IMG/VR virus record: IMGVR_UViG_3300033146_004404
Span: 128,001 to 192,000 of that record
Strand: one strand, 5' to 3'
Origin: a virus
Lineage: Duplodnaviria > Heunggongvirae > Uroviricota > Caudoviricetes
Length of the DNA stretch: 64,000 nt
Below, piece by piece: positions 41,263 to 55,856 of this stretch. The translations under genes were made by a program, and so were the position numbers. Under the pieces are notes generated by a model, which was given only the letters and a program-made list of their open reading frames with translations, did not search any database and had not been told where the DNA came from. Within the stretch, counting starts at the first letter, position 1, and each line of letters begins with the position of its first letter.

Positions 41263-41292
41263 AAAAGGCAACCAATTGGTTGCCTTTTTTAA
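41259..41292. terminator. Bidirectional intrinsic terminator
   Basis: TTAAAAAAGGCAACCAATTGGTTGCCTTTTTTAA perfect palindrome that contains both convergent stop codons. Confidence 0.85.
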
Positions 41293-42785
41293 TTCATATT
41301 ATTTTTAATTTTATTTTCTGCCTCAGCTGCTCTAACTTTATTTGGTTGGTTGGTATTATTCTTTGCTTTTCTAGCGGCACTTCTCATAGCCCTACTGTTA
41401 CGTTCTTTTTTCTTATTTTCATCTCTTGCAGTTTCAGCTTTATTGTATATCTTAAGAGCTTCTGGATCCATTGGATTCATGCTAGCATATTTTTCAGCTG
41501 CTTCGGGAGAAATGTACTTAGCAACTAAAGCTTTGCCTGTAAAAGCATCTTTAACAGCAGTAGCTTTATTTGTTATTGCTTCTGTTCCTTTTTTAACATA
41601 CTTTTGATTAGCAATGCTTTGAACTATTTTTTGAGGTTTAGGTATTTTATCAAGGTTCAATCTCTTTTTAAGTGTTTTTGATGCAGCACCAAGAGCAGTA
41701 CTTTCTCGTGCGTTTTTAAACTTCTGGGTTGCTTTTATTGAAATTTCAAGATCGTATTTATTTGATACATTATTAGAAGCATTTTTAAGTTTTCTAGCTT
41801 CTGACGAAGCTTTTATTCTCTTAGTAGAATTCGATTTTGATTTAAAATTTACTTGCTGATCTCTTGCTTTGTTTATAAGATTGTTCATCTCTTTATTATA
41901 CTTATTAATAAGTTTTCTATTTTTAGCTTGTATAAGAGGGTTTTGAATTACTTTGAAGCGCTCTTCAAACTTACTTAGATTTTTTTGTTTTATTGCTTCT
42001 ATTTCATCGGCGATAGAGTTAGGACTATCTTTACTCATTCTTACTTTTGAATCTGGATCTATTTCTTCAGGCTCTTCATAAGTAGATCCTTCTGCTTCAG
42101 CTTTTGCTTTTGCTTTTGCTTTTGCTTTTGCTTGATTAACCCTTGACCTGTCATATGTTGTATCTTGTTCGTTTTCAGGCTTTCCAATTGAGTTTCTAAT
42201 TTCTTCACTTTCTGCACTGGCTTGTTTAGCATTTGCTGCCATTACTGCTGGATCAGTTTCATCTGTTTTATCATCTGTTTTATCATCTGTTTTATCATCT
42301 GTAGTTTTAGTGCCTTCAGCTCCAGCTTTATTTTTATTATTTTCGGCTTTAGCTTCTCTTCTGTACTTAGTTACCGTTTTCGTTGAGCTAGTAGTAATTG
42401 CGCTAATGATTTTATCATCTATTTCTTTAGCTTTATCTTTAACGTCATCTCCAGTATTTCCTTCTGTATTGAAGTTAAGCTTCTTCATCTGTTCCTTATC
42501 TTTGCTAAGGACTGATATTGCAAAAGCTAAATCATAGAATGCTGAAGACGGGTCGTTAAAAATTTTTACCATGGCTGAAGTAGGATTCTTTTCGATTCGA
42601 GTTTTAAGTTGAAGAACAAGATCTTGATCTATCTTTTTAATCACTTCCTTTGCTTTAGCAACAACTTCAGGAATTCTTTTCCATTGTTTCCCAAGCCCTT
42701 GAGTTTTAATTATTTGTTTGAAGCTATTGTTATCTTCATTTTCATTTAATGTCTTGTTGTTATAAAATTCTCTAAAAGAGCTCAT
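41289..42785 (-). CDS. K/A-rich late protein, putative internal head protein
   Basis: N-terminus MSSFREFYNNKTLNE resembles the T4 capsid-targeting sequence; TDDK and KA repeats; triple late motif upstream. Confidence 0.6.
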   Translation of the reverse strand: MSSFREFYNNKTLNENEDNNSFKQIIKTQGLGKQWKRIPEVVAKAKEVIKKIDQDLVLQLKTRIEKNPTSAMVKIFNDPSSAFYDLAFAISVLSKDKEQMKKLNFNTEGNTGDDVKDKAKEIDDKIISAITTSSTKTVTKYRREAKAENNKNKAGAEGTKTTDDKTDDKTDDKTDETDPAVMAANAKQASAESEEIRNSIGKPENEQDTTYDRSRVNQAKAKAKAKAKAEAEGSTYEEPEEIDPDSKVRMSKDSPNSIADEIEAIKQKNLSKFEERFKVIQNPLIQAKNRKLINKYNKEMNNLINKARDQQVNFKSKSNSTKRIKASSEARKLKNASNNVSNKYDLEISIKATQKFKNARESTALGAASKTLKKRLNLDKIPKPQKIVQSIANQKYVKKGTEAITNKATAVKDAFTGKALVAKYISPEAAEKYASMNPMDPEALKIYNKAETARDENKKKERNSRAMRSAARKAKNNTNQPNKVRAAEAENKIKNNMN

Positions 42786-42808: not shown

Positions 42809-42844
42809 ATTACCTTTACTATTACCTTTACTATTATCTTTACT
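42809..42844 (-). promoter_or_regulatory. Three tandem 12-bp late-promoter motifs
   Basis: + strand ATTACCTTTACT ATTACCTTTACT ATTATCTTTACT, i.e. AGTAAAG(A/G)TAAT x3 on minus. Confidence 0.7.
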
Positions 42845-42872
42845 TGACAAAAAAAGAATAATATGTTATAAT
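42844..42872 (+). promoter_or_regulatory. sigma70-type promoter, copy 5 (DnaE part A)
   Basis: TTGACA-N17-TATAAT, consensus spacer. Confidence 0.9.
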
Positions 42873-42890: not shown

Positions 42891-44180
42891 ATGGCATATT
42901 CACATCTCCACGTCCATTCCCATCTTGGGAGTCAGCTTGATGGAATCGGAACATCGGAACAATACGCTAAATTAGCAAAAGAAATGGGACATCCATCTCT
43001 AGCAATAACAGATCACGGAAAAATGAACGGTCATTACGATCACTTCCTAGCTTGTAAAAAACATGGGATTAATCCTATATTTGGAGTTGAAGCATACGTT
43101 GAATTCGAGCTAGAACGATTTGAAGAAAAGAATGGAAAACAGAAAAGAGTTAGAAATAAGAATATGCACTTAGTCCTCCTTGCAAAGAACGAAGTCGGTT
43201 ATAAAAATCTTCTTAAGCTGAACTATAAATCTATGTCTGATGAAAAACATTTCTATTACAAGAATCATATAACCATAAAAGAACTCTTTGAAAACAAAGA
43301 AGGGATAATCGTAGGAACAGCTTGTATGGGATCTCCGTTCGCAAGACTATATAGAGACAAAAAAATAGTAGAAGCAGAGAAGTTATTTAAACTATTTAAG
43401 AATCAATTCGGTGAAGACTTCTATGCTGAGTTACAAATAAATGAAATAGATCATTCCATTGATAACTTTGAAGAAGGACAGAAATCTGTAAACGCATTTA
43501 TTTTGAGGTTAGCTAAAGAGTATGATGTTCCAGTTGTGCTTACTGGTGACGTTCATTATTCAAAAAAGGGGATGGCAAAAATACAAACACTAGCAATAGC
43601 AATCAGTAGAAAAGTAACTCTTGATGAACTTGATTGGGAACTTGAAGGAAAGAGTTTGTTTTATATGGACATTCCTGACTTTAAAAAATTCAATGAAGAT
43701 TGGGGTTATGGATATACAAATCAGCAGATCGAAGAATGGTGTGAGAACACTCAGCTTATTGCTGATAGATGTGACTTTCAATACAGAGAGAGGAATAGAG
43801 TTCTCCTTCCAACGTTTTCGGAAGATGATGATGCTTTATTAATAAAAGAAAGTATGAAAGGATTAGCTGAGAAATTAAAAGTTGAAGACTTTAAACATGC
43901 TCCAAAAGAATATAGAGAAAGATTAGCGAAAGAACTTGAGATCATATTAAGGAAGGGGTTTGCTTCATATATTATGATATTATGGGATGTGTTTAATTTT
44001 GCAAAAGAAGAAGATATAATGCGAGGTCCCGCTCGGGGCAGCGGTGGTGGTTCATTACTTTTGTATGCTCTTGATATAACAACATTAGATCCAATAAAAT
44101 ATGAACTCATCTTTGAACGTTTCTTGTCGGATCAGAGATCCGTAGATGTTGTTTATGATTGGTTTGGTGAAATAAAATAA
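42891..44180 (+). CDS. dnaE: DNA polymerase III alpha, part A (PHP domain plus start of palm)
   Basis: HLHVHS, AITDHG, GVEAY, HLVLLAKN.VGYKNL, GDVHY, RGSGGGS, LIFERFL. Confidence 0.95.
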   Translation: MAYSHLHVHSHLGSQLDGIGTSEQYAKLAKEMGHPSLAITDHGKMNGHYDHFLACKKHGINPIFGVEAYVEFELERFEEKNGKQKRVRNKNMHLVLLAKNEVGYKNLLKLNYKSMSDEKHFYYKNHITIKELFENKEGIIVGTACMGSPFARLYRDKKIVEAEKLFKLFKNQFGEDFYAELQINEIDHSIDNFEEGQKSVNAFILRLAKEYDVPVVLTGDVHYSKKGMAKIQTLAIAISRKVTLDELDWELEGKSLFYMDIPDFKKFNEDWGYGYTNQQIEEWCENTQLIADRCDFQYRERNRVLLPTFSEDDDALLIKESMKGLAEKLKVEDFKHAPKEYRERLAKELEIILRKGFASYIMILWDVFNFAKEEDIMRGPARGSGGGSLLLYALDITTLDPIKYELIFERFLSDQRSVDVVYDWFGEIK

Positions 44181-44191
44181 AGGAAGGTATA

Positions 44192-44359
44192 ATGGAAAAA
44201 GAATACACAGTGAAATGCGTTGAGTGTGGCAATAAATTTAAGGCAAGGTTTGAAGCGGATAAGCTTGATGGGTATGAAACATTAGCTTATTGCACAGAGT
44301 GTAATGACGTTAAAGAAGTTACTTTATCTGGAGCTTTTCAAGCAAAGAAAAAATCTTGA
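44192..44359 (+). CDS. Small zinc-ribbon protein (55 aa)
   Basis: Manually read MEKEYTVKCVECGNKF...YCTECNDVK..., AAGGAAGG SD; below the ORF-track cutoff. Confidence 0.7.
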   Translation: MEKEYTVKCVECGNKFKARFEADKLDGYETLAYCTECNDVKEVTLSGAFQAKKKS

Positions 44360-44384
44360 CAAAAAAAGAATAATATGCTATAAT
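44356..44384 (+). promoter_or_regulatory. sigma70-type promoter, copy 6 (helicase)
   Basis: TTGACA-AAAAAAGAATAATATGC-TATAAT. Confidence 0.9.
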
Positions 44385-44391
44385 TGAGTAT

Positions 44392-45708
44392 ATGGAAGAA
44401 ACAAAAGAAAAAATAAATGATATTATCAACACTTACTTAGATGGCTTTCAAGACCTTGGTTATGAAATAACGGAAGATATAAAGAAAGCTTTGTTGTTCG
44501 CAGAATTTTCAAAAAAGAATTTAATAATTTCTGGTTCAGCGGGAACTGGAAAATCAACATTTATAGAACTATTTAAGAAAAATTCAAAAAAGTCAGTCGT
44601 AACCCTAGCCCCCACTGGGGTTGCGGCTGTTAACGCAAACGGAGTAACCATACATTCGTTTTTTAAAATGGCAATAGGTATAGCAAACAAATATTCAGTT
44701 TCAAAAGAAGCTAAAGAAGTAGTTAATAAAGTCGATGTTATTATCATTGATGAAATCTCAATGGTTAGAGCAGATCTTATGGATGCTGTAGATTCACATT
44801 TAAGAATCCTTACAGGAAACGCTGATAAGCCTTTTGGTGGAATTAAGATAGTTGCTGTTGGAGATTTATTTCAATTGCCTCCAGTAGTTCAAAGCGGAAC
44901 TCCGGACTTTGCTTATATTAGAGATAACTTTTATTCAAAGTGGTTTTTTAGTGCGCCGGAGGTCGGTGAATTTAACGTAGTTGAATTAAAGAAGATCTTC
45001 CGTCAAAGCGAAGAACAGTTCATTAATACTTTAAATAGAATTCGTGTTGGAAAGCAGTCATGGGATGATCTCAAACTAATAAATACAAGAGTAGTAACAG
45101 AAGAGGAGTTTGGTAAAGACGGAGAAGATTATATTTATTTAGCGTCTACTAATAAGACAGCTGATAACGTAAACTCCGAGAGGTTAAAGAAAATAAATGA
45201 ACCATCGTTCTTTTTTCACTCATCTACTAAGGGCGATTACCCAAAAGGGTCTATGCCAGCTCCGGAAATAATTGAGTTAAAAAAGGGCTCTCAAGTAATG
45301 ATGCTTAGAAATATAGCAGCACACAATCTTTATAACGGCCAGGTTGGAAGAGTAATTGCTTTAGGTGAATACTTTATCAAAGTTAAATTTGGGAAAGCAG
45401 ATTATGTAATTAATAAAGAAATCTGGTTGAACAATGAATACTCGTTAGTTGATGGAAAAATACAACTGAAAGAACTTGGTTCATATACTCAGTATCCTTT
45501 AAAACTTGCTTATTCAATAACCATTCATAAAAGTCAAAGTAAAACTTATGAGAAGATTTTTATTGATTTAGGTGGCGGTGCTTTCAGTGCCGGACAGACT
45601 TATGTTGCTTTATCAAGATGCAAGACTCTTAATGGAATTGGCCTTAAGTATAAAATTGAAAAAAGAGATATAATAGTTGATAGAGTTTTAAAAGAGACTT
45701 TTCTTTGA
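44392..45708 (+). CDS. Pif1/RecD-like SF1B helicase
   Basis: GSAGTGKS, APTGVAA, TIHSFF, IIDEISM, GDLFQLPPV, YSITIHKSQ, YVALSR. Confidence 0.95.
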   Translation: MEETKEKINDIINTYLDGFQDLGYEITEDIKKALLFAEFSKKNLIISGSAGTGKSTFIELFKKNSKKSVVTLAPTGVAAVNANGVTIHSFFKMAIGIANKYSVSKEAKEVVNKVDVIIIDEISMVRADLMDAVDSHLRILTGNADKPFGGIKIVAVGDLFQLPPVVQSGTPDFAYIRDNFYSKWFFSAPEVGEFNVVELKKIFRQSEEQFINTLNRIRVGKQSWDDLKLINTRVVTEEEFGKDGEDYIYLASTNKTADNVNSERLKKINEPSFFFHSSTKGDYPKGSMPAPEIIELKKGSQVMMLRNIAAHNLYNGQVGRVIALGEYFIKVKFGKADYVINKEIWLNNEYSLVDGKIQLKELGSYTQYPLKLAYSITIHKSQSKTYEKIFIDLGGGAFSAGQTYVALSRCKTLNGIGLKYKIEKRDIIVDRVLKETFL

Positions 45709-45733
45709 CAGAAAAAGAATAATTGAATATAAT
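45705..45733 (+). promoter_or_regulatory. sigma70-type promoter, copy 7 (DnaE part B)
   Basis: TTGACA-GAAAAAGAATAATTGAA-TATAAT. Confidence 0.8.
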
Positions 45734-45769
45734 ATAATATAATAGACTTATTACCGAAGGAGATAAAAA

Positions 45770-46672
45770 TTGAAGACTTGGACTGAGCTTAAAGATTTTT
45801 GTGAAAAAAGCGAACGTTTTTTAGACTTAAGCGAAGAAGAAAAAAAAAGATATAAAAAGGAAATTGCTGTAGCAAAAAGATTTTATTCCAATAAAAGAAA
45901 TCTTTTTGACGAACTTCAAATAAAAAAGGATAGAATTGATAATAGATACATAATTCCTTTTTTATTAAAGCTTACTGACTGTATTGCCAACAAAAGACCT
46001 GCTTATATTCAGGTAAAGTCAGGAGCTTCAGGAGGGATAGACATAGACACCGATTGGCAGGGTGATGGTAGAGAGAAAATCTATAATTATCTCGTTGAAA
46101 AATATGGAATAGAAAGAGTTCTTCATGTAGGAACTTTTTCAGCTCTTGGGCCGGCATCAGCAGCAAAAGATGTTTTAAGAGCAAATAAAATTGACTTTGG
46201 TAAATCAAATGCCTTCACTAAAGTTCTTGAAAAGCAAGAAAGTTGGGAAGAGAATCTTGAGAGAATTAAAGGAACAGATCAAGCCAACTGGAGATTCTAT
46301 GAAGAGAATAAAGAAGTTCTTGAAGATGTTCCTCACTTAATTGGAAAGATAAGACAGTGTTTGCCTTGGAATCAAGATGTAGATATCATTGACGAATATG
46401 GAGTTAAAACAAAAAAGCTCATAAAGTTTATAGATCCAGCCCAGGATTATATTTCTTATATGGATAAAGATGGAAATAAACAATATACTAAAAATTATGA
46501 GGTATTCCCTTCTGGAAAGAAGAAGATATATGAAATAACTACCTCAAAAGGAAAAAAGATAAGAGCGTCTGCTAATCATAAATTTTTTTTAAGAAGTGGT
46601 GAAATTAAAAGATTAAAAGATTTAAAGAATGACGATGAAATCATCATTGATAGTAATTCCGCCTCCGTGTAA
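45770..46672 (+). CDS. dnaE: DnaE part B (palm DID motif) fused to split-intein N-half
   Basis: IDIDTDW..GREKIYNYLVEKYG..RV..VGTF...LIGKIRQ then CLPWNQ...SANHKFF (intein blocks A and B). Confidence 0.9.
   Translation: MKTWTELKDFCEKSERFLDLSEEEKKRYKKEIAVAKRFYSNKRNLFDELQIKKDRIDNRYIIPFLLKLTDCIANKRPAYIQVKSGASGGIDIDTDWQGDGREKIYNYLVEKYGIERVLHVGTFSALGPASAAKDVLRANKIDFGKSNAFTKVLEKQESWEENLERIKGTDQANWRFYEENKEVLEDVPHLIGKIRQCLPWNQDVDIIDEYGVKTKKLIKFIDPAQDYISYMDKDGNKQYTKNYEVFPSGKKKIYEITTSKGKKIRASANHKFFLRSGEIKRLKDLKNDDEIIIDSNSASV
46358..46669 (+). mobile_element. Split intein N-fragment (104 aa)
   Basis: Cys1 CLPWNQDV; SGKKKIYEITTSKGKKIRASANHKF; LKDLK..DEI; then stop. Confidence 0.9.
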
Positions 46673-46699
46673 AGGTAATGTAAACACGGAGGTGGAATT
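46655..46699 (+). promoter_or_regulatory. RBS-occluding hairpin with late promoter at its loop
   Basis: AATTCCGCCTCCGTGT / ACACGGAGGTGGAATT 16-bp stem (one G-U); GTAAAGGTAAT at 46669-46679; GGAGG in the 3' arm. Confidence 0.8.
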
Positions 46700-46702
46700 T
46701 AT

Positions 46703-47572
46703 ATGAAGTGCTTAATATGTGGAGAAGAAGTAGAGAGAAGTAGTTTTCATTTTCATTTAAAAAAACATAATATGAAAATGAAAGAGTATTATGTAAAATT
46801 CAATTTTGACTTTACGAAAAAAGATTATTTAGAAAATGAATATTGTAAAAATGAAAAATCACTGAAACAGATAACAAAAGAATGTGAAGAGAAATATAAT
46901 ATTTCAAATTTAAAAAGTACTGTACTTGATTTTGCTAAAGAATTTTATATAAAAAAAAGAACTATTTCAGGTGCTGGAAAATTGTATTTTGAAAATAATG
47001 AAATTTGGAATAAAGGGTGTACGAAAAAAGATAATGCTTCTGTAGCTTTATATTCAAAAAAGAAAAAAGAGCTTTATAAAAAAGTAAGAAAAAAACTAGA
47101 AAGTTTATCTATAAGTGAATTACTAAAGTTTAATATTCAACAGAATAAAAAAATTAGAAACATACTAAGAAAAAAGCTTATAGAAAAACAAGATAATATC
47201 TGTCCTATTTGCGAAAGCAGTTTAACAAATTTAGATAAAAGATTGCAACATATCCATCATATAGACAGAGACAATTCAAATGATACAGAAGAAAATTTAA
47301 TCGTTTTGTGTGCAAGCTGTCATACAAAATTATCTGGGCACAAACACAGACTTAAAGAACTTGATTTTATATTATCTTATGATGACTTTGTTAATAATTT
47401 AGAACTTGTTAGATATGAAATATCTAAAATAAAAAAAAATAAAGAAGATATGATGTGTCAATTAGAAAGCGTTGATAAATTTGATAAAAAAAAGTATTAT
47501 GAAAATATAAAGGAGAATGGAAAATGCTCGATAAACATATCAAAATTAAAACTGACAGAATTTATTCAATAG
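46703..47572 (+). CDS. Free-standing HNH homing endonuclease between split-intein halves
   Basis: N-terminal CLIC...H...H finger; CPIC...HIHHIDRDNSNDTEENLIVLCASCH. Confidence 0.9.
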   Translation: MKCLICGEEVERSSFHFHLKKHNMKMKEYYVKFNFDFTKKDYLENEYCKNEKSLKQITKECEEKYNISNLKSTVLDFAKEFYIKKRTISGAGKLYFENNEIWNKGCTKKDNASVALYSKKKKELYKKVRKKLESLSISELLKFNIQQNKKIRNILRKKLIEKQDNICPICESSLTNLDKRLQHIHHIDRDNSNDTEENLIVLCASCHTKLSGHKHRLKELDFILSYDDFVNNLELVRYEISKIKKNKEDMMCQLESVDKFDKKKYYENIKENGKCSINISKLKLTEFIQ

Positions 47573-47964
47573 TTGAAAAAGAAGAAGAAGAAACATATGA
47601 TATTCAAAACTTTCAAGATGATTGCTTTTTAAAAGAACCAAATTTTTTTGCTGATGGTTTTCTCGTTCATAATTCTGGAAAGCATGCTGGTGGAATCGTA
47701 ATTAGTGACAAACCAATTTATAACTATATTCCTGTTGATAGAGTTCAGGGAGAAGTTGTTACAGCATTTCCAGAAAGTGGAAGCAACACTGTTCTTGATG
47801 AGATCGGTATAATAAAATATGATATTTTAGGTATATCAATCTTGGATGTTATATCAGAAGCTATAGGTATGATAGACGAAGACATTTATTTAATTGAAGA
47901 TGACGATGGAATTCAGAAAGCGGTCCCTGCATCTTACATAGATAACATAATAAAAAAACTTTGA
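47524..47964 (+). CDS. dnaE: Split-intein C-half (50 aa, 47524-47673) fused to DnaE part C
   Basis: DRIYSI....EETYDI...PNFFADGFLVHN|SGKHAGGIVIS...IPV...GIIKYDILG; own AAGGAG SD inside the HNH gene. Confidence 0.9.
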   Translation: MLDKHIKIKTDRIYSIVEKEEEETYDIQNFQDDCFLKEPNFFADGFLVHNSGKHAGGIVISDKPIYNYIPVDRVQGEVVTAFPESGSNTVLDEIGIIKYDILGISILDVISEAIGMIDEDIYLIEDDDGIQKAVPASYIDNIIKKL

Positions 47965-47976
47965 GGTAATTTATTC

Positions 47977-49488
47977 GTGACTGATTTTGCATTATTGAAC
48001 TATAAAAAAAGAGAAAAAAAGAAAAAAATCATTGATGGCTTTTTATTAAATGCAAAGCAGGACGATAAAACACTCTTTAAGTGCTTGGTGTGTGGAAAAG
48101 AAACAAGTAAGACAATCTCTGCTTTGATTAAAAGAGGTATTGATTATAAAAAAATAGACGTAGAAAATAACGATACGATTTTTATGTGTCGAAAACATTC
48201 TCAAGAAGCTATAACTGAAAAGAAATATGGAGTTAAGAATAATTTTCAAAATCCAGCTTCAATAAAAAAGATCAAGAAAAAGAGAGAAAAAAAAAGAATA
48301 GAAAGTGGAGATCCTCTCTATTTTTTAAATCAAGGTGATCTTATCGTTTTTACTTGTGAAGTATGTGGAAAGAAAACATCCGTTCAGAAAAGAAAATACA
48401 CTAGTAATTTATGCAGAGAATGCAAGATAAAAAAGGCTAATAGAGAGAAAATTCTTCCTGTGATATTAAAAAGGCTTAAAGGCAACAATATTGAATTGTT
48501 AAAACCTTATTCTAACCAGAGAGAGTTAGAAGAAAACGTTCTTTATGATTTTAAGTGCTTAATTTGCAATAATACCTTTAAGGATCATCTTCACTCTCAT
48601 ATTCCAAGATGTCCTACTTGCTATCCAAAATATTCTTCAATTGGTGAAAAAGAAATAAAAGTTTTTATAGAGTCTTTAGGTTTTGATGTCATAGAAAACG
48701 ACAGAAAGATTCTTAGTGGCCTAGAGTTAGATATTTATATTCCGGATAAAAAAATAGCAATAGAGTTTAATGGTCTTTATTGGCATAGTGAGCAGAAAGG
48801 AAAAGATAAAAACTACCATTTAAACAAAACATTAAAATGTGCAGAAAAAGAAATTCAGTTAATTCACTTCTTTGAAGATGAATGGTATAATAAAAAAGAA
48901 ATAGTGAAATCCATTATTGCAACAAGATTGGGGATAGTAGGTAAAAGAATTTATGCTAGAAAGTGTATTATAAAAAATGTGACAAATAAAGAGGAAAGAA
49001 GATTCTTAGAAGAAAATCATATTCAGGGATATTATCCTTCTTCTATTAAGCTAGGCTTATACTATGAAGAAGAATTAGTTTTAATTTTAACTTTTGGAAA
49101 ATCACGATTTAGTAATCACGATTTTGAGTTAATAAGATTTGCTAATAAATTAAATTCTTCTGTGGTTGGTGGATTTTCTAAGCTTTTAAAATCTTTTAGA
49201 AAAGATAATAAAGGAAGCTTAATAACCTTTTCAGAGAGAAGGCTGTTTTCAGGAAATGTTTATGAGAAGAGCGGTTTCTCGTTTTTAAAAACGACCTTAC
49301 CAAATTATTACTATGTAGACGAAAACTATAATAAGAGATTTAATAGAATGAAATTTCAAAAGCATAAATTAAAGAATTTGTTAAAAGAGTACAATGAAGA
49401 ATTAACAGAGAAGGAAAATATGATAGTTAATAACTATGATAGAATTTGGGACTGTGGAAATAATTCTTTTGAAATAAAAAAACTTTAA
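47977..49488 (+). CDS. Homing endonuclease, zinc ribbons plus Vsr/DUF559-like nuclease (Hef-like)
   Basis: Several CxxC; S.GEKEI..FI, LELDIYIP...IAIEFNGLYWHS, IYARKC, NHIQG, RIWDCG. Confidence 0.8.
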   Translation: MTDFALLNYKKREKKKKIIDGFLLNAKQDDKTLFKCLVCGKETSKTISALIKRGIDYKKIDVENNDTIFMCRKHSQEAITEKKYGVKNNFQNPASIKKIKKKREKKRIESGDPLYFLNQGDLIVFTCEVCGKKTSVQKRKYTSNLCRECKIKKANREKILPVILKRLKGNNIELLKPYSNQRELEENVLYDFKCLICNNTFKDHLHSHIPRCPTCYPKYSSIGEKEIKVFIESLGFDVIENDRKILSGLELDIYIPDKKIAIEFNGLYWHSEQKGKDKNYHLNKTLKCAEKEIQLIHFFEDEWYNKKEIVKSIIATRLGIVGKRIYARKCIIKNVTNKEERRFLEENHIQGYYPSSIKLGLYYEEELVLILTFGKSRFSNHDFELIRFANKLNSSVVGGFSKLLKSFRKDNKGSLITFSERRLFSGNVYEKSGFSFLKTTLPNYYYVDENYNKRFNRMKFQKHKLKNLLKEYNEELTEKENMIVNNYDRIWDCGNNSFEIKKL

Positions 49489-49499
49489 AGGAAGTAAGC

Positions 49500-49724
49500 A
49501 TGAGCAAGAAAAAGAAAACTGTCAAAGAAGAGATTGCCTCTAAAAATGAAGTAGAAGTAGAAGTGAAAGCTCCTGAAGTAGAAGTAGAAGTAGAAGTGAA
49601 AGCTCCTGAAGTAGAAGTAAAAGTGAAAGCTCCTGAAGTAGAAGTAAAAGTGAAAGCTCCTGAAGTAGAAGTGAAGCAGACGCCAAAGTCTAATTACGAA
49701 ATTAGAACTGGAGTAAAGAAGTAA
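49500..49724 (+). CDS. Small low-complexity repeat protein (EVEVKVKAP)n
   Basis: 74 aa, AAGGAAG SD, followed by a terminator; ~27-bp tandem DNA repeats. Confidence 0.65.
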   Translation: MSKKKKTVKEEIASKNEVEVEVKAPEVEVEVEVKAPEVEVKVKAPEVEVKVKAPEVEVKQTPKSNYEIRTGVKK

Positions 49725-49758
49725 AAAAAGAGTTGGTTTAAAAACCAACTCTTTTTTT
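49724..49758 (+). terminator. Intrinsic terminator
   Basis: AAAAAAGAGTTGGTTT..AAACCAACTCTTTTTT. Confidence 0.8.
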
Positions 49759-49760
49759 AC

Positions 49761-49789
49761 TTGACAAAAAAAGAACAATATGGTATAAT
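49761..49789 (+). promoter_or_regulatory. sigma70-type promoter, copy 8
   Basis: TTGACA-AAAAAAGAACAATATGG-TATAAT. Confidence 0.9.
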
Positions 49790-49808
49790 GTAATATAAGG
49801 AGAAAAAA

Positions 49809-50027
49809 TTGGCTATAAAAAACAAAGAAGTAATGGGGCTAATTAACCAAAAAACAAAAGAGATGGAAAAGCATCTTAATAGTATTGAAGAAGAATTAAA
49901 AAAAGATGAAGATCGATTTAGTAAAGCAGCTGTGTCATTAAGTGTTGGTAAAGTTATGAAACTTCATCAAGATATAGCTTTTTTTCTCGGCGTTCATGAT
50001 GACAATCCAAAATACCTAGGCAACTAG
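49809..50027 (+). CDS. Hypothetical early protein
   Basis: TTG start with TAAGGAG SD. Confidence 0.65.
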   Translation: MAIKNKEVMGLINQKTKEMEKHLNSIEEELKKDEDRFSKAAVSLSVGKVMKLHQDIAFFLGVHDDNPKYLGN

Positions 50028-50075
50028 AGTTTATCGTGCTAACTCTAAATTTTTTTATGACGTAAAGATAAAGTA

Positions 50076-51001
50076 ATGAATAAATTAACCATTAATGAAG
50101 CAAAAAAGAGATTTAAAGAAAAGCACGGCGATAAATATAGATATTTTAATTTTTGTAGATATGAAGGAACAAGCCAAAAAATTAAAATAATATGTCCTAT
50201 CCATGGAGAGTTCTTTCAGAGTGTAAAAATGCACCTTGCTGGTCAAGGCTGTAGATTATGTAGTTATGAAAAAAGAGCAAGTCAATCAAAAAAAACAAGC
50301 CTTGTTTTTATAACTGAATCCAAAGAAGTTCATGGTGACGAATACGACTATTCAAAGGTCTTTTATTTAAGGAAAGACAAAAAGGTAAAAATAATATGTC
50401 CTATTCATGGAGTTTTTTTGCAAAGACCTGATGTTCATTTAAATGGAGCTGGATGTCCTACTTGCGGAAGAATAAAAAGTGACTTAAGTAGAAGAAAAAC
50501 TACAGAAGATTTCATTAATCGTTCTGTAAAAGTACACGGTAATAAATACAACTACGCTAAAACAAAATATGTTACAGCAAAAGAAAAAGTGTTAATATGT
50601 TGTAAAAAGCACGGAGAATTTTTACAAAGACCAAATAACCACTTAAACGGAGCTGGATGTCCTGTTTGTTGTGAGAGCAGGGAGAGAAGGAAATAGAGGA
50701 AATTCTTACAGAAAGAAAAATTGCTTTTACAAGACAAAAACTTTTTAAGGGTTGTAATGGAGTAAAGAGAGCTCTGCCTTTCGATTTCTTTTTAGAAGAG
50801 TTAAACGTTTGTATAGAATACGACAGAGTTCAGCATTATAAGCCAATAGCTTATTTTGGAGGTTCCGAAAAACTAAACAAGACCCAGTAAGCAGATAAAA
50901 TAAAAAATCTTTTTTGTAAAAAAGAAAAAATAAAATTAATACGAATTCCTTATTATGAATATAAGAATATAGAGGAGTTTCTTATGGAGAAAATAAACTA
51001 A
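50076..51001 (+). pseudogene. Decayed homing endonuclease (ICP.HG.F.Q....HL.G.GC repeats plus Vsr-like domain)
   Basis: ORF stops at 50696. Another frame from ~50681 reads GEKEIEEIL...LPFDFFL....CIEYDRVQHYKP...FGG, has an in-frame TAA at 50888, then LIRIPY to a stop at 51001. Confidence 0.85.
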
Positions 51002-52318
51002 ATGTTAAAAAAACTACAGGAAATGGTAGATGATCTTTCATCTACTAACTCAAAGAATGAAAAACTTGAGAGACTTAAAAAATACGATGATGAATTTACT
51101 CTTGCATTGATTAAGTACGCTCACGATCCGATGATACAATTTAATGTGACGTCGAAAACTATAAAAGCTTACACAGGCTCTCATAAAAATAGAGTTATGG
51201 TAGAGGATGACATATTCTCTTTGCTAGATCAGTTAAAAGACAGAAAACTCACTGGTCACGCAGCACTTGCAGCAGTAAGAGAATACGTAGATTCTTTTAA
51301 ACAGTATGAAGATCTTATCTATTCAATCATAGATAAAAATTTAAAAATAAGAATGAGTGACAGCTCAATAAACAAAGTATTCCCAGATCTCATCCCAGAG
51401 TTCAAAGTGCAACTCGCAGACAAATATAATAAAGACAGACTTCCTCCATTCAAAACAGAGAAGTGGTACTCATCAAGAAAACTGGACGGTGTTAGATGTA
51501 TTGCAGTAGTGGATTTTACTTTTGGGAAAGAAGTAGTGGACTTTTACAGCAGGACTGGCAAAGAGTTCTTCACGCTTGGCGTCGTAGGTGTCGCAATAAA
51601 AAAAGAATTAAAAAAAATTTATACCAACGAAAAATTCATCTTAGACGGCGAAATGTGTATTGTTGACGAGAAAGGTGATGAAAGCTTTTCTGAAGTTATA
51701 AAGCTTGTCAGAAAGAAAGATTATTATATAGAAAATCCAAGATATAAAATCTTTGATATAATTCTTTTTGATGACTTTATAAAGAAATCAGGAAAAACTC
51801 TTTTTAGTAAACGCTATGATAAATATATGCAGATTAAATCACCTTCTGGCATTCTTGATCCTGTAAAACAGACAGTCATTGAAGACGAAGAAGATTTTAA
51901 CATTTGTAATGTCGAAGCTATTACGAATGAATGGGAAGGGTTAATAATAAGAAAAGATTGTGAATATGCCGGAAAACGTTCTAAGAACATGCTAAAAGTA
52001 AAACAATTTCATGAAGCAGAATATGTTGTTAAAAGTATTGGAACTGATATGGTTAGATATATTGATGAGACTACTGGAGTTGAAGCTGAAGAAGAAATGC
52101 TTAAGCGAATTAACATAATCCACAAAGGAAACAATGTCGGTGTTGGTTCTGGATTTTCTTTACAGCAGAGAAAAGATTTCTTTAAAGACCCTTCATTAAT
52201 AATAGGAAAGACAATAACAGTTAAATTTTTTGAAGAGTCAATGGATGCCAAATCAGGAATGTATTCATTAAGGTTTCCAGTATTGAAAGCGATTCATGGA
52301 AAAGAGAGAGTAGTGTAA
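51002..52318 (+). CDS. ATP-dependent DNA ligase
   Basis: KLDGVRC, YSRTGK, LDGE, IFD, EGLIIR, KRSKNMLKVK, VGSGF, SLRFP. Confidence 0.95.
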   Translation: MLKKLQEMVDDLSSTNSKNEKLERLKKYDDEFTLALIKYAHDPMIQFNVTSKTIKAYTGSHKNRVMVEDDIFSLLDQLKDRKLTGHAALAAVREYVDSFKQYEDLIYSIIDKNLKIRMSDSSINKVFPDLIPEFKVQLADKYNKDRLPPFKTEKWYSSRKLDGVRCIAVVDFTFGKEVVDFYSRTGKEFFTLGVVGVAIKKELKKIYTNEKFILDGEMCIVDEKGDESFSEVIKLVRKKDYYIENPRYKIFDIILFDDFIKKSGKTLFSKRYDKYMQIKSPSGILDPVKQTVIEDEEDFNICNVEAITNEWEGLIIRKDCEYAGKRSKNMLKVKQFHEAEYVVKSIGTDMVRYIDETTGVEAEEEMLKRINIIHKGNNVGVGSGFSLQQRKDFFKDPSLIIGKTITVKFFEESMDAKSGMYSLRFPVLKAIHGKERVV

Positions 52319-52350
52319 AGATAATTATATAAAAAAGTAAGGATTATATA

Positions 52351-53814
52351 ATGACTTTAATAGAAGAGATTAGAAGAAACTCTGGGGTTGAGTTAAATGA
52401 GACAATTCATGGACGATTAACAATAAGAGCTATAAAAAAGATTCAGAAAGAAGTTGATAAAATGTATTCTAAGGAAGCAGCTTCCTTAGACTCTAGTTCC
52501 AGTAAAGCTGATAAAAAAGATCTTGAATATTTTGGAATTTTTAGAAGAAGAGTTAGCGAAGTAGTGATAGAGCTTGAAACCCTTGATAAGAAGACTAATT
52601 CATCAAGAGGATTTGAGAGAAGAATGAATAAAGAGAAATTCAAATCTCTTGAAACTAAATATTCTGCTTTAATTTCTGCTTCAAGACATATGAAGAAATC
52701 AAGAAAGTTGAAAATATTAGGGGTTCTAGTTCTAACTTCAGGAATAAGTATGTATATAGCCACCAGAATTGGTGTTGATCTTCCTAATCCTGGTGGCTTT
52801 AATGCGTGGATAAATATGTTATTAGTTGGTGGTGGAATGGGGGCTCTTGGATCGTCGGATTTGAAAAACATGCAAAAAAACGAGGAAATGGATAAAGCCC
52901 TTGTAAGGCTAGTATCAGAAGAGCTTGAGAAAAAGTCTAAGGGAGACTATAAAAAAAAGAGCAGTAAATTAGATGAAAGCGTAAGTGATAAGGTTGAAAG
53001 TTCAAAGAAAAGGATCTTTAGAAAAATAAGAATAGCAGTTGAGCTATCACGAAAAAAACGTTCAAAGAAGTTTTTTGCTGGCTTGTATAAAATATTGAAA
53101 AAGAAAGGTCAGCAAGAAGAAAAAATAGATGAAGCTTTAATAACTAAGGCTGATATTAAAATGCTTTTCTGGGGACATAATTCCCCAGAAGAAACTAAAT
53201 CAGTTAATAAAATGACTAAAGATATTTTACGTATTAGCTTTAAAGAGATAAAGAATATAGATAAGATAGAAAAATCTGTAGATAAACTTTTGAGTCTACT
53301 TATTAAGAATGAATATGATAAACAAGATGAGAAAGATTACAAAGAAATACAGAAGGTCTTTAGAAAAAATAAAATAAAAATTGAAAGTGTTATAGGTGGA
53401 GATTCTGATGCTCAAGGAGTTCATCAGTTAGAATCTAAAAAAACAGTTTTTTCTGTAGATATAACAAAGAATAGAGAAATAGTAAAATCTACTATTATTC
53501 ATGAATTAACGCATAAGAAACAGTCAGAGCTCTTAAAGAAATACGCCCCAAGAACTTGGAAACGTCTTTGGATGAGAATAAATGACAAAGATTATCACGA
53601 TATTGCAATGGAAGTAGGTGCTTTTCATGAAGAGTATGTTTATTTAATAGAGAAGATGGAAAAAGCTGACAAGAAAACAAAAAGAGTATTATCAGCTTTT
53701 TTAATAGAAGAGATTTTCTACAGAGATAACTTAAAGGACAATATTTTGAGGGACTATCCAAAAAATGATCCTGTAGTAAAATTTATAAAGAGAGTTAAAG
53801 TAATAAAAATATAA
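52351..53814 (+). CDS. Leader-family protein: coiled coil, two hydrophobic helices, C-terminal HExxH zincin-like domain
   Basis: MTLIEEIRRNSGVELNE; IIHELTHKKQ...Y....MEVGAF; late motif at 52315. Confidence 0.65.
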   Translation: MTLIEEIRRNSGVELNETIHGRLTIRAIKKIQKEVDKMYSKEAASLDSSSSKADKKDLEYFGIFRRRVSEVVIELETLDKKTNSSRGFERRMNKEKFKSLETKYSALISASRHMKKSRKLKILGVLVLTSGISMYIATRIGVDLPNPGGFNAWINMLLVGGGMGALGSSDLKNMQKNEEMDKALVRLVSEELEKKSKGDYKKKSSKLDESVSDKVESSKKRIFRKIRIAVELSRKKRSKKFFAGLYKILKKKGQQEEKIDEALITKADIKMLFWGHNSPEETKSVNKMTKDILRISFKEIKNIDKIEKSVDKLLSLLIKNEYDKQDEKDYKEIQKVFRKNKIKIESVIGGDSDAQGVHQLESKKTVFSVDITKNREIVKSTIIHELTHKKQSELLKKYAPRTWKRLWMRINDKDYHDIAMEVGAFHEEYVYLIEKMEKADKKTKRVLSAFLIEEIFYRDNLKDNILRDYPKNDPVVKFIKRVKVIKI

Positions 53815-53826
53815 GAAGGGAATATA

Positions 53827-54210
53827 ATGCTAGACATAGATAAAGAAGTGCTGAATGAGAAGTATAATAATGGAGACATGGAATACTTTTTTAGTAAAGC
53901 AGAAAAAATTGCTGACTTCTTACTAACTAGAAACTATAAAGTTTTTGATAGCGAAAAAAGAGCCGATATGGTTCAAGAGTGCCTTGAAAATCTTTGGAAG
54001 AAACAACTCCAAGGAAAGATAGATGGATCTAAAAACCTAATGGCTTTCATTTGGAAAAATTCAGATTTTAGGATAAAAGAGATATTCAGAAAAGAGAATA
54101 ACAGGAACAGAATTGCTCCTTTTATTTCATACGATAATGAAGAATTTGAGTTTCTTAAGGGAATCGGCAGCGAGAAGTATAATAAAGAATTCTTTGAAAT
54201 GCTTGCTTGA
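53827..54210 (+). CDS. Putative late sigma factor (sigma region-2 only, T4 gp55-like)
   Basis: EKIADFL...DMVQECLENLWK......SKNLMAFIW.....IKEIFRKE resembles sigma region 2 / gp55. Confidence 0.6.
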   Translation: MLDIDKEVLNEKYNNGDMEYFFSKAEKIADFLLTRNYKVFDSEKRADMVQECLENLWKKQLQGKIDGSKNLMAFIWKNSDFRIKEIFRKENNRNRIAPFISYDNEEFEFLKGIGSEKYNKEFFEMLA

Positions 54211-54212
54211 TC

Positions 54213-54321
54213 TTATTCTCTCCTTGTAAAGATAAAGGAGAGAATAATTATTTTCTCCCTGTAAAGATAATATAAAGGAGAGAATAATTATTTTCTCCCT
54301 GTAAAGATAATATAAAGGAGA
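54213..54321 (+). repeat. Three tandem 34-40 bp hairpin units, each with late motif and SD
   Basis: TTATT(C/T)TCTCC(T/C)T-GTAAAGATAA(TATA)-A(A)GGAGAGAATAA repeated at 54213, 54248 and 54288. Confidence 0.9.
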
Positions 54322-54325
54322 AGCT

Positions 54326-55027
54326 ATGACCTTAAGAAAGAAGATAGAAATGACTTCTATCAATGAAGAAAATGAGTATTTAGTAGAAGGAATTCGATTC
54401 TTCAAAACTTCAAAAAAAATCACTTCATATATAAAAAAAATAGAAAAAAAGAATACCAACGGATCTCTTGATGGCCTAATAGAGCGACTTGAAAGAGTAT
54501 CTAAAAACTTTGAAGTCGCCGAAAGAATGCACCAAACTGGTAGAAAAACTGAAGCAAAACAATTATATTTACAGTACAAAAAAGATAATATTTTATTAAT
54601 GACTGCTCTAAATAAAGAATCAACTAAGAAAATATTAGTAAGACTAGGAATAGGATTAATTGTATTACAAGTTCTTTTAAGTATGACTACCGGAATTGGT
54701 TTATATGAAAGATTATTTATGAGAGGAGCATCGACAGCAGCAAGAATGGCTGGAAGATCAGGAGCTTTAGTTTCAACTGAAGTTCTTAGCGATAATCTTC
54801 CTGGCTCATCAGGGGCTCCTTCTTTAGAATCCCTTGACGCATCGCAACTCGTACTAAACAATGAAATAAAAAACTTAAAGAAAGATGTAGGTTTTTCTAA
54901 AGATGCAATAAAAGACAAAGCTAAAGAACTTGCAGCTCTTGAGAAGTTTGAAAAAGCACTAAAAAAGTTTAATAAAGCAAATGGAAAAGGACTAAGCATC
55001 TTAGATAAGATATTAGGTAGAAAATAA
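54326..55027 (+). CDS. Late membrane-helix protein, paralogue of the next gene
   Basis: LVEGIRFFKTSKKI..YIKKIEKKN..G..D.LI..L; hydrophobic ILVRLGIGLIVLQVLL. Confidence 0.7.
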   Translation: MTLRKKIEMTSINEENEYLVEGIRFFKTSKKITSYIKKIEKKNTNGSLDGLIERLERVSKNFEVAERMHQTGRKTEAKQLYLQYKKDNILLMTALNKESTKKILVRLGIGLIVLQVLLSMTTGIGLYERLFMRGASTAARMAGRSGALVSTEVLSDNLPGSSGAPSLESLDASQLVLNNEIKNLKKDVGFSKDAIKDKAKELAALEKFEKALKKFNKANGKGLSILDKILGRK

Positions 55028-55062
55028 TTTAATCTGTAAAGTTAAGTATATAAATAATAACA

Positions 55063-55797: not shown

Positions 55798-55821
55798 GAT
55801 ATAGATCAACTAGATAATTAA

Positions 55822-55850: not shown

Positions 55851-55856
55851 TCTTAT

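What the first reader, a model, noticed from the sequence alone, without database searches (positions are those of the whole stretch)
46655..46705. Promoter-in-loop hairpin that would silence the HNH on early mRNA and release it late
Seen: a 16-bp stem sequesters the GGAGG SD of the HNH gene. The late motif sits at the loop, overlapping the intein-N stop codon. Early read-through mRNA, which is needed for DnaE part C, would fold and block HNH translation. A late transcript starting in the loop lacks the 5' arm. Known: the same logic controls T4 I-TevI. This independently supports the late-promoter call.
Basis: partly seen in the sequence, partly recalled or inferred. Interest (0 to 1): 0.72.

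Follow-up and report, generated by a model that had tools for sequence, protein, structure and literature searches.

The report
RBS-masking hairpin with promoter in loop
A strong RNA hairpin in a large phage hides the ribosome-binding site of a selfish nuclease gene that splits the phage's DNA polymerase gene, and a phage promoter motif sits in the hairpin loop; this is a known control design seen here with a different promoter type.

Summary
Bases 46655-46699 form a 16-bp stem (15 Watson-Crick pairs and one G:U) with a 13-nt loop. The 81-nt fold is -29.9 kcal/mol, z = -5.5. The 3' arm holds the GGAGGTG Shine-Dalgarno (SD) of an HNH gene whose ATG is at 46703. The loop holds GTAAAGGTAAT, a phage promoter-like motif that overlaps the TAA stop of the DnaE-B/intein-N ORF.

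The motif is real: 16 copies in the window against 0.71 expected, and 28 in the genome. It is also enriched in two related phage contigs and sits before tail-sheath and baseplate genes.

The HNH gene and a split intein are an insertion. Three related contigs carry the uninterrupted DnaE site.

Predicted SD accessibility is 0.000 on read-through RNA and about 0.77 on RNA starting in the loop. The opening cost is 22.3 against 5.6 kcal/mol. The four codons that build most of the 5' arm are among the rarest synonymous choices in the genome.

Most likely, the SD is sequestered on early read-through mRNA and freed on loop-initiated transcripts. This is the published logic of T4 I-TevI, Aeh1 mobE and 'fractured genes' (Dassa 2009). 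One caveat is that the 5' arm is translated, so early repression may be leaky or coupled to translation. No transcription start, timing or covariation data could be obtained. It is a new member of a known kind, of moderate interest.

The parts
45705..45733 (+). Early-type promoter, a perfect TTGACA-17-TATAAT, ahead of DnaE part B. It would start the read-through transcript that contains both hairpin arms.
   Evidence: 9 perfect matches in the window against 0.04 expected, all on the + strand.
45770..46672 (+). ORF for DnaE part B fused to the N-terminal split-intein half. The intein part is 46358-46669 (104 aa, starts with Cys). The stop TAA is at 46670-46672.
   Evidence: Pfam DNA_pol3_alpha 6.3e-13 and Intein_splicing 6.3e-9. 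Relatives read straight through KIRQ|SGKH. Coordinates.
46655..46670 (+). 5' arm of the hairpin (the anti-SD arm). It consists of the last five sense codons of the intein-N ORF plus the first base of the stop.
   Evidence: Codons TCC GCC TCC GTG are used at 3.4, 5.4, 3.4 and 6.4% among synonyms in 112 long ORFs of the genome.
46669..46679 (+). Phage promoter-like motif GTAAAGGTAAT in the loop, 34 nt before the HNH ATG.
   Evidence: PWM score 16.7 bits, rank 22 of 28 core matches and above every non-core site.
46671..46683 (+). The 13-nt loop.
46684..46699 (+). 3' arm of the hairpin, containing the SD GGAGGTG (46688-46694).
46703..47572 (+). Free-standing HNH endonuclease gene (289 aa, 23% GC).
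   Evidence: Pfam HNH 1.4e-4, 22.4 bits against a cut-off of 21.4. PHROG HNH endonuclease 9.6e-10. Four homologues at 48-70% identity begin with the same N-terminus. GC.
47524..47964 (+). ORF for the C-terminal split-intein half (47524-47673, 50 aa, ends HN followed by Ser) fused to DnaE part C. It has its own AAGGAG SD and overlaps the HNH ORF by 49 nt.
47977..49488 (+). Second homing-endonuclease-like gene (Hef/HNH-like) at the end of the same predicted early transcription unit.
   Evidence: PHROG homing endonuclease 3.2e-117. DNA similarity of 63-68% to Campylobacter phage Hef genes among the listed hits.
49719..49762 (.). Canonical bidirectional terminator (20-bp stem, 4-nt loop, A and T runs) that closes the unit. 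It shows what terminators look like in this genome.
   Evidence: genome 177719-177762; sequence.

Best explanation
The hairpin is a cis-acting translational gate for a selfish HNH homing-endonuclease gene. That gene sits between the two halves of a split intein inside the phage's dnaE gene.

Transcripts from the sigma70-type promoter at 45705 carry DnaE part B, the hairpin, the HNH gene and DnaE part C. On these RNAs the last 16 nt of the intein-N ORF pair with the HNH SD region, so 30S subunits cannot bind. Part C keeps its own SD and is still made.

A second, phage-specific promoter class (GTAAAGRTAAT, found before structural genes) lies in the loop. An RNA started there lacks the 5' arm, so its SD is free and HNH is translated.

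Shown: the structure, the motif statistics, the insertion status and the predicted accessibility change. Inferred: that the motif is a promoter, that it fires late, where it starts, and that translation follows accessibility.
For: 1. Structure. A 16-bp stem at -29.9 kcal/mol, z = -5.5, with 0 of 200 shuffles as good. It persists in 250-nt and 500-nt contexts. Nothing as stable appears in 10 whole-genome shuffles.

2. Accessibility. The mean probability that SD bases are unpaired is 0.000 on RNAs starting at 46400, 46550 or 46640. It is 0.77-0.78 on RNAs starting at 46671-46684, and 0.34 on one starting at 46686. Opening 46686-46708 costs 22.3 against 5.6 kcal/mol.

3. Selection at the nucleotide level. 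The arm-forming codons TCC, GCC, TCC and GTG are used at 3.4-6.4% among their synonyms. The joint probability of the five codon choices is 2.7e-6. The arms are 53% GC, next to a 23% GC gene. The single imperfection is G:U on the + strand RNA.

4. The motif.
- 16 in the window against 0.71 expected, and 28 in the genome.
- 7 and 9 copies in two related contigs, against 0 and 1 for the reversed control.
- Nearly all copies lie 14-65 nt before a start codon in the same orientation.
- It precedes tail sheath, a head-tail adaptor-like gene and a baseplate wedge gene.
- It occurs in back-to-back divergent pairs (21542/21575) and before the only minus-strand gene in a plus-strand block (42810-42843). 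Nothing upstream could supply those sites with a transcript, which favours a promoter over an RNA processing site.

5. Outlier status.
- Of the 28 motif copies, 25 have a downstream ORF. Among these, the rise in opening cost from short to long RNA is largest here, 17.4 kcal/mol. The next values are 12.9, 7.7 and 7.3.
- In the whole genome only two hairpins at or below -20 kcal/mol hold an SD in the 3' arm before an ORF.

6. Mobile-element context. Relatives at 77% and 51% identity have the uninterrupted site. The HNH and intein-C ORFs overlap by 49 nt.

7. Precedent. Passages of PMC2988022 describe the same switch for I-TevI, I-TevII, I-TevIII, segB and Aeh1 mobE. Section 14 of PMC2677866 reports hairpins in 15 of 16 endonuclease 5' UTRs of fractured genes, 10 with a late-promoter element, and 6-69 bp overlaps.
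Against: - No transcription start, no timing data and no expression data exist for this phage. No sequencing run was listed.
- No homologous hairpin could be fetched, so there is no covariation test.
- The 5' arm lies inside a translated ORF and ends at its stop codon. Terminating ribosomes must open the stem, so early repression may be partial.
- If HNH is untranslated early, 851 nt of ribosome-free RNA precede part C. That could cost part C expression through polarity or decay.
- A 10-of-12 sigma70-like match at 47472-47500 could drive part C on its own. Such matches are at chance frequency, 78 found against 75 expected.
- No factor that would read the motif (sigma or RNA polymerase) was identified.
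- The motif also precedes genes of unknown function in the replication block, so 'late' is an association and not a measurement.
- In a few copies an SD-like GGAG follows the 10-nt core directly (genome 64825 and 182226), so the start point relative to the motif is uncertain.
Confidence: 0.6

Rival explanations
1. Translational-coupling gate. The hairpin's main job is to tie HNH initiation to ribosomes finishing the intein-N ORF. A ribosome stopped at TAA 46670-46672 covers the whole 5' arm and frees the SD 16-20 nt downstream. HNH would then be made at a low, fixed ratio to DnaE part B at all times, and the loop motif would add to this or play no part.
For: The 5' arm is exactly the last 16 nt of the ORF, including the first base of the stop. 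The stop-to-ATG distance is 30 nt. That ribosomes unwind mRNA they translate, and that hairpin melting couples neighbouring cistrons, is textbook knowledge recalled here and not checked in a paper.
Against: - Coupling alone does not explain why a full promoter motif, scoring within the range of the other 27 copies, fills the loop at the usual spacing from the start codon.
- The published homing-endonuclease cases work through promoter position.
- A local hairpin should refold quickly once the ribosome leaves.
Confidence: 0.2
2. Transcription attenuator or 3'-end stabiliser. The stem-loop ends or protects the part B message and lowers read-through into the HNH gene.
For: It is a GC-rich stem at the end of an ORF. 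The review passages note weak terminators inside T4 mobE and segF (PMC2988022).
Against: - No U-tract follows the stem. The 13-nt loop and the tail differ from this genome's terminators, which have 4-nt loops and long T runs. The terminator scan did not list it.
- Part C, needed in step with part B, lies downstream with no consensus promoter of its own.
Confidence: 0.07
3. DNA-level palindrome. The inverted repeat flanking the motif is an operator for a dimeric regulator, or for the endonuclease itself as with I-TevI autorepression. Alternatively it is a remnant of the element's insertion.
For: I-TevI binds an operator overlapping its late promoter (PMC2988022 passage). The repeat brackets the motif symmetrically.
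Against: - The single mismatch is tolerated as G:U only in + strand RNA.
- One arm is exactly the SD and the other an anti-SD-like CCUCC run, which points to RNA and ribosome logic.
- The arm sequence occurs nowhere else in the window.
- The intein-less target site shares only the short AAAGRTAA core with the loop. That core is common in this window, 23 hits on the + strand alone.
Confidence: 0.06
4. Relic without present function. The HNH gene is decaying and the hairpin is inherited baggage.
For: This HNH lacks a segment of about 65 aa, with a second Cys/His motif, that all four homologues carry.
Against: The ORF is intact with its HNH motif. The stem has 16 of 16 pairs despite needing rare codons.
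Confidence: 0.05

Closest known systems
T4 intron endonuclease I-TevI (also I-TevII, I-TevIII and free-standing segB): an RBS-sequestering hairpin with a late promoter placed so that late transcripts lack the inhibitory arm
   Same: - The SD is buried in a stable local hairpin on transcripts from upstream early or middle promoters.
- A second promoter sits just upstream of the endonuclease gene so that its transcript cannot form the stem.
- The endonuclease is embedded in an early gene that must still be expressed.
   Basis: PMC2988022 passages.
   Different: - The promoter motif here is GTAAAGRTAAT, not the T4-type TATAAATA.
- The host gene is interrupted by a split intein, not a group I intron.
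- The 5' arm here lies in a translated ORF.
- Nothing has been tested experimentally here.
[quoted passage not shown]
   Same: - A free-standing HNH gene splits an essential replication-related gene.
- A hairpin sequesters its RBS and a late promoter is associated with the hairpin.
- The endonuclease ORF overlaps the downstream gene half.
   Different: - No intein is mentioned for that split in the passages read.
- That phage uses a T4-type late promoter.
- The host phage lineage and polymerase type differ.
'Fractured genes' (Dassa et al. 2009, PMC2677866): split inteins with a free-standing homing endonuclease gene between the halves, three DnaE loci among them
   Same: - The layout is extein-IntN, then hairpin, then endonuclease ORF, then IntC-extein.
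- Hairpins precede the endonuclease start in 15 of 16 cases, 10 of them with a late-promoter element.
- The endonuclease and IntC ORFs overlap by 6-69 bp; here the overlap is 49 bp.
- IntN is 88-105 aa and IntC 33-54 aa there; here they are 104 and 50 aa.
   Different: - The endonucleases there are GIY-YIG or Vsr-like; here it is HNH.
- The promoter element there is TATAAATA.
- Those loci came from short marine reads. Here a 201-kb genome gives the full promoter and terminator context, and intein-less relatives are available.
T4 late genes soc, e, 39, 25 and 26, regulated by RBS sequestration on long early transcripts
   Same: Generic logic of late genes carried on early polycistronic RNA (PMC2988022 passage). 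A second, weaker example in this genome precedes a 924-aa non-endonuclease gene.
   Different: Different phage lineage and promoter class.

Membership tests
Promoter-in-hairpin translational switch (I-TevI / mobE type) | The SD and/or start codon of the endonuclease gene is paired in a stable local hairpin | tested here: met
   16-bp stem; SD unpaired probability 0.000 on long RNA; z = -5.5.
Promoter-in-hairpin translational switch (I-TevI / mobE type) | An upstream early or middle promoter produces transcripts containing both arms | tested here: met
   A perfect sigma70-type promoter at 45705-45733 with no terminator-like site before the hairpin. This is sequence-level evidence only.
Promoter-in-hairpin translational switch (I-TevI / mobE type) | A second promoter is placed so that its transcript lacks the 5' arm | tested here: inconclusive
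   The motif is at 46669-46679, in the loop, and is statistically and contextually promoter-like. No 5' end data exist.
Promoter-in-hairpin translational switch (I-TevI / mobE type) | The second promoter is late in infection | not testable with these tools
   The only evidence is association with tail sheath, adaptor-like and baseplate genes. No run was listed.
Promoter-in-hairpin translational switch (I-TevI / mobE type) | Translation is repressed on the long RNA and relieved on the short RNA | not testable with these tools
   Thermodynamic prediction only: 22.3 against 5.6 kcal/mol to open the site.
Fractured gene (split intein plus free-standing homing endonuclease; Dassa 2009) | The host gene lies in two adjacent same-strand ORFs, interrupted relative to intact homologues | tested here: met
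   Relatives L001, L002 and L052 read through the site.
Fractured gene (split intein plus free-standing homing endonuclease; Dassa 2009) | Split-intein halves carry the splicing residues | tested here: met
   IntN starts with Cys and matches Pfam Intein_splicing at 6.3e-9. IntC is a 50-aa extra segment ending His-Asn, followed by Ser. IntC has no Pfam hit of its own. Splicing activity was not tested.
Fractured gene (split intein plus free-standing homing endonuclease; Dassa 2009) | A free-standing endonuclease ORF lies between the halves | tested here: met
   HNH by Pfam and PHROGs. The family differs from the GIY-YIG and Vsr-like families of the paper.
Fractured gene (split intein plus free-standing homing endonuclease; Dassa 2009) | A hairpin lies upstream of the endonuclease start, and the endonuclease ORF overlaps the IntC ORF | tested here: met
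   Hairpin. The overlap is 49 nt, 47524-47572, within the published 6-69 bp.
Intrinsic terminator | A GC-rich stem with a short loop, followed directly by a U-tract | tested here: not met
   The loop is 13 nt and the tail is not U-rich. The site is absent from the terminator scan and unlike this genome's terminators.
Any Rfam family | A covariance-model match at the gathering score | tested here: not met
   0 matches at gathering score in the window. Only generic miRNA-hairpin hits appeared, far below threshold.

The most novel reading that the evidence does not exclude
A T4-like jumbo phage lineage that replicates with a multi-piece DnaE uses its own late-type promoter class (GTAAAGRTAAT, reader unknown). 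It has built the promoter-in-loop, SD-masking switch at least twice: before the HNH gene, and more weakly before a 924-aa gene at genome 97.8 kb. At the HNH gene the switch would be a two-input gate. The SD is exposed either by a start in the loop or, briefly, by ribosomes terminating on the 5' arm. The selfish nuclease would then be throttled early in proportion to polymerase synthesis and released late.
Probability: 0.3. Interest if true: 0.5.

Novelty: new member of a known kind. Interest (0 to 1): 0.35.

Why it matters
If correct, the hairpin-plus-internal-promoter solution for taming a homing endonuclease inside an essential early gene is not tied to the T4 gp55 / TATAAATA system. It can be rebuilt around a different promoter motif. 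That makes it a useful annotation rule: an anti-SD/SD stem around a phage promoter motif marks late-only genes.

The locus also gives a clean natural case for experiments. There is an intact split intein, an HNH gene, intein-less relatives that supply the target site, and a stem built from rare codons that can be broken with synonymous changes. It adds no new principle.

Tried and rejected
Searches for a homologous hairpin, needed for a covariation test:
- HNH protein against the phage collection: no match.
- HNH protein against viral contigs: 22 pattern hits, 0 relatives.
- Profile scans of viral, metagenome and genome contigs gave only distant relatives: 13, 9 and 4 loci, with best-segment identity 23-62% over partial matches.
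- Only 3 of those 26 loci had matches starting at the protein's N-terminus (L005, L006, L026). Their upstream regions show no comparable stem.

Other dead ends:
- Sequencing runs: none was listed and no RNA holder was listed.
- Earlier notes of this scan: none.
- Rfam: nothing at gathering score. Only sub-threshold miRNA-like hairpin hits appeared.
- Relatives of the 924-aa protein behind the second hairpin: none.
- Primary mobE papers PMC2655525 and PMC1913452: not held.
- A literature search for the 10-mer motif found 54 papers. The 10 listed are unrelated by title and abstract start, and the other 44 were not seen.

Search for the factor that reads the motif:
- Pfam at 1e-5 on 141 ORFs outside the window and at 0.01 on 12 window ORFs: no sigma or RNA polymerase.
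- PHROGs on 101 and 67 ORFs: none.
- One lead is window ORF 53827-54210. It is homologous to a conserved ORF in relative L052. It resembles a 'Sigma-70 region 2' cluster only at rank 17 in the Atlas feature search, and lenient Pfam gives no support.

Readings rejected:
- Dispersed repeat.
- Intrinsic terminator.
- Chance.
- RNA processing site as the meaning of the motif. Divergent pairs and an isolated minus-strand gene argue for a promoter.
Full report
**What is there**

The window is bases 128001-192000 of a single 201,184-bp viral contig with 32.7% GC. The genome encodes T4-type capsid (Gp23), portal (Gp20) and prohead protease proteins, a tail sheath and baseplate wedge proteins. It replicates with a DnaE-type polymerase. 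No close relative exists in the phage collection.

- The 5' arm is 46655-46670, the loop 46671-46683 and the 3' arm 46684-46699.
- The stem has 16 uninterrupted pairs, one of them G:U (46661:46693).
- The 3' arm contains GGAGGTG (46688-46694). The HNH ATG is at 46703.
- The loop carries GTAAAGGTAAT (46669-46679), whose bases 2-4 are the TAA stop of ORF 45770-46672.

**Is it more than chance?**

- The 81-nt segment folds at -29.9 kcal/mol against -13.2 ± 3.0 for shuffles. That is z = -5.5, and 0 of 200 shuffles do as well.
- In a scan of the whole genome, the + strand has 8 uninterrupted hairpins at or below this one's -25.7 kcal/mol. Ten dinucleotide shuffles of the genome have none, with a best value of -20.3.
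- The arm is not a dispersed repeat.

**The genes around it**

DnaE is encoded in pieces.
- Part A is 42891-44180.
- A Dda-like helicase gene follows, with its own promoter.
- Part B is 45770-46672.
- Part C is 47524-47964.
- Part D is 55857-58205 and carries a full intein with an HNH domain.

Part B ends in a 104-aa intein-N half that starts with Cys (46358-46669). Part C starts with a 50-aa intein-C half that ends His-Asn and is followed by Ser.

Between them lies a 289-aa HNH ORF (Pfam 1.4e-4, just above the family cut-off; PHROG HNH endonuclease 9.6e-10). Its last 49 nt overlap the intein-C ORF.

Two viral contigs with 77% identical part B (L001, L002) and a third at 51% (L052) read straight through the site (…KIRQ|SGKH…). 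The split intein and the HNH gene are therefore an insertion particular to this genome.

This is the 'fractured gene' layout of Dassa et al. 2009. I read section 14 and other passages of PMC2677866. It reports hairpins in 15 of 16 endonuclease 5' UTRs, 10 of them with the TATAAATA late element. It also reports 6-69 bp overlaps between the endonuclease and the downstream intein half, and it includes three DnaE loci.

**Two promoter classes**

The first class is the perfect TTGACA-17-TATAAT. It occurs 9 times in the window against 0.04 expected, always on the + strand, and almost identical over 29 nt. It sits before replication-type genes, part B among them, at 45705.

The second class is GTAAAGRTAA.
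- It occurs 16 times in the window against 0.71 expected, and 28 times in the genome.
- It occurs 7 and 9 times in the two related contigs, against 0 and 1 for the reversed control.
- Nearly all copies lie 14-65 nt upstream of a start codon in the same orientation.
- Genes served include tail sheath, a head-tail adaptor-like gene and a gp25-like baseplate wedge.
- They also include several unknown genes inside the + strand replication block.
- Copies occur as back-to-back divergent pairs (21542/21575). Three tandem copies precede the only minus-strand gene in a plus-strand region (42810-42843). A promoter explains these placements; an RNA processing signal does not.

The loop copy scores 16.7 bits in a matrix built from the other copies. 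That is rank 22 of 28 and above all non-core sites. Its distance to the ATG is a typical 34 nt.

I found no sigma factor or RNA polymerase that could read the motif. One weak lead is listed under things noticed.

**What the fold would do**

On RNAs starting at 46400, 46550 or 46640, the SD is unpaired with probability 0.000. Opening 46686-46708 costs 22.3 kcal/mol. On RNAs starting anywhere from 46671 to 46684, the SD is unpaired with probability about 0.77, and opening costs 5.6 kcal/mol. An RNA starting at 46686 gives 0.34.

Any start at or after the third base of the motif leaves out the 5' arm. The conclusion therefore does not depend on the exact start point. That start point is uncertain, because in a few copies an SD-like GGAG follows the 10-nt core directly.

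Of the 28 motif copies, 25 have a downstream ORF. Among these the long-minus-short opening cost is largest here at 17.4 kcal/mol. The next values are 12.9, 7.7 and 7.3, and the rest are 4.9 or lower.

**Evidence that the stem is selected**

Most of the 5' arm consists of the last four sense codons of the intein-N ORF: TCC, GCC, TCC and GTG. In 112 long ORFs of this genome these are used for 3.4, 5.4, 3.4 and 6.4% of their amino acids. With the preceding AAT codon, the joint chance of these choices is 2.7e-6. The arms are 53% GC, next to an HNH gene of 23% GC. The only imperfect pair is G:U on the + strand RNA. That would be a mismatch in DNA or in the antisense RNA.

**Transcription unit**

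No consensus promoter, motif copy or strong terminator-like site lies between 45733 and part C. The unit ends at a canonical bidirectional terminator at 49719-49762. That terminator has a 20-bp stem, a 4-nt loop and T runs, and looks quite unlike the hairpin in question.

Part C has its own AAGGAG SD. However, a 10-of-12 sigma70-like match at 47472-47500 cannot be excluded as a separate source. Matches of that quality are at chance frequency.

**Best explanation and its weak points**

I read the hairpin as a translational gate of the I-TevI / mobE type. The SD is masked on early read-through RNA and free on RNA started in the loop. Passages of the review PMC2988022 describe this mechanism for I-TevI, I-TevII, I-TevIII, segB and Aeh1 mobE, and for ordinary T4 late genes.

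Everything beyond structure, statistics and context is inference.
- There is no 5' end, timing or expression evidence.
- There is no homologous hairpin for a covariation test. The four close HNH homologues (48-70% identity) are on contigs I could not fetch.

Each termination event must melt the stem. Early repression may therefore be leaky, or the element may act partly as a coupling device. That ribosomes unwind translated mRNA is recalled general knowledge, not checked here.

A second cost follows if HNH is silent early. Part C would then sit behind 851 nt of untranslated RNA.

**Rivals**

A terminator or attenuator is unlikely, because there is no U-tract, the loop is long, and an essential partner gene lies downstream. 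A DNA-level operator is possible but is not favoured by the G:U asymmetry or by the SD/anti-SD content of the arms. A relic reading is weakened by the 16-of-16 stem built from rare codons. It gains a little support from this HNH lacking a roughly 65-aa segment that its four homologues carry.

**Support from elsewhere in the genome**

Outside the window, at genome 97.8 kb on the minus strand, another copy of the motif lies in the loop of a hairpin. The outer pairs of that hairpin join CCUC to the GGAG SD of a 924-aa gene. Its opening-cost difference is 12.9 kcal/mol, but the fold is only -18.5 kcal/mol with z = -2.4, and 2 of 200 shuffles do as well.

At genome 122770-122811 on the minus strand, an 18-bp stem (-27.1 kcal/mol) buries AGGAGG and the ATG of a 70-aa ORF just after the intein-bearing ribonucleotide reductase gene. 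No motif lies in its loop. The ORF matches only the C-terminal 60 residues of a 353-position PHROG of unknown function.

These suggest that SD-masking stems are a recurring device in this phage. They are weaker evidence than the main case.

**Verdict**

The design is already known, including for split-intein DnaE loci. The new points are a different promoter motif, an HNH-family endonuclease, a complete genomic context with intein-less relatives, and a stem written in rare codons. It is a new member of a known kind, with interest 0.35.

Noticed in passing
Outside the window: G000:C1 about 97745-97845, minus strand (L057:3745-3845:-): A second promoter-in-loop hairpin. CCUC pairs with the GGAG SD of a 924-aa gene (P0006), and GGTAAAGATAAA lies in the 19-nt loop. 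The fold is -18.5 kcal/mol, z = -2.4, with 2 of 200 shuffles as good. The opening-cost difference is 12.9 kcal/mol. No relatives of the protein were found in viral contigs.
   Followed up: partly
Outside the window: G000:C1:122770-122811, minus strand (in L049): An 18-bp hairpin (-27.1 kcal/mol) buries AGGAGG and the ATG of a 70-aa ORF directly after the intein-containing ribonucleotide reductase gene. The ORF matches only the C-terminal 60 positions of phrog_22677 (unknown function), plus a weak REase_MTES_1575 hit (E 0.0017). It may be a gene fragment. No promoter motif lies in the loop.
   Followed up: partly
window 32401-32476: A terminator-like hairpin after the helicase gene (z = -5.2, followed by a T run) has a near-copy of the motif (GTAAAGATAC) inside it. 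A consensus copy follows at 32467, 27 nt before gene 32494. A start inside the terminator would escape termination.
   Followed up: partly
L002 4258-4443 (also L001 and L052 at the same place): Relatives carry a group I intron (RF00028, 65.1 bits, E 1.8e-16 in L002) in dnaE part B at the GASGG|IDIDTD junction. This window has no intron there. The same gene is thus invaded by different mobile elements in different relatives.
   Followed up: partly
window 42891-58205: dnaE is encoded in at least four pieces (A, B, C, D) spread over 15 kb. A Dda-like helicase, two more endonuclease-like genes, a DNA ligase and unknown genes lie between them. The A/B break has no intein and is shared with the relatives. 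Part D holds a complete intein with an HNH domain.
   Followed up: partly
window 53827-54210, and 54226-54310: This 127-aa ORF is conserved in relative L052 (34% identity, E 4e-15). In the Atlas feature search, a cluster labelled 'Sigma-70 region 2' appears at rank 17 with score 0.96. Pfam gives no support. Directly downstream are three tandem copies of the promoter motif interleaved with palindromes. It is a lead for the factor that reads the motif.
   Followed up: partly
window 46703-47572: This HNH protein lacks a segment of about 65 aa, with a second Cys/His (HNH-like) motif, that all four database homologues (351-360 aa) carry.
   Followed up: no
window 42810-42872: Three tandem motif copies on the minus strand abut a perfect sigma70-type promoter on the plus strand. 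This is a compact divergent control region between gene 41289-42785 and dnaE part A.
   Followed up: no
window 47977-49488 and genome 196681-198156: Two Hef-like endonuclease genes (a Mom-family domain plus a nuclease domain). The window copy shares 63-68% DNA identity over about 500 nt with Hef genes of Campylobacter T4-like phages among the listed hits.
   Followed up: no
Outside the window: genome about 99-113 kb, minus strand (L048): A run of eight radical-SAM/SPASM-type genes, with an aminotransferase and a cytidylyltransferase. This is an unusual biosynthetic block for a phage.
   Followed up: no
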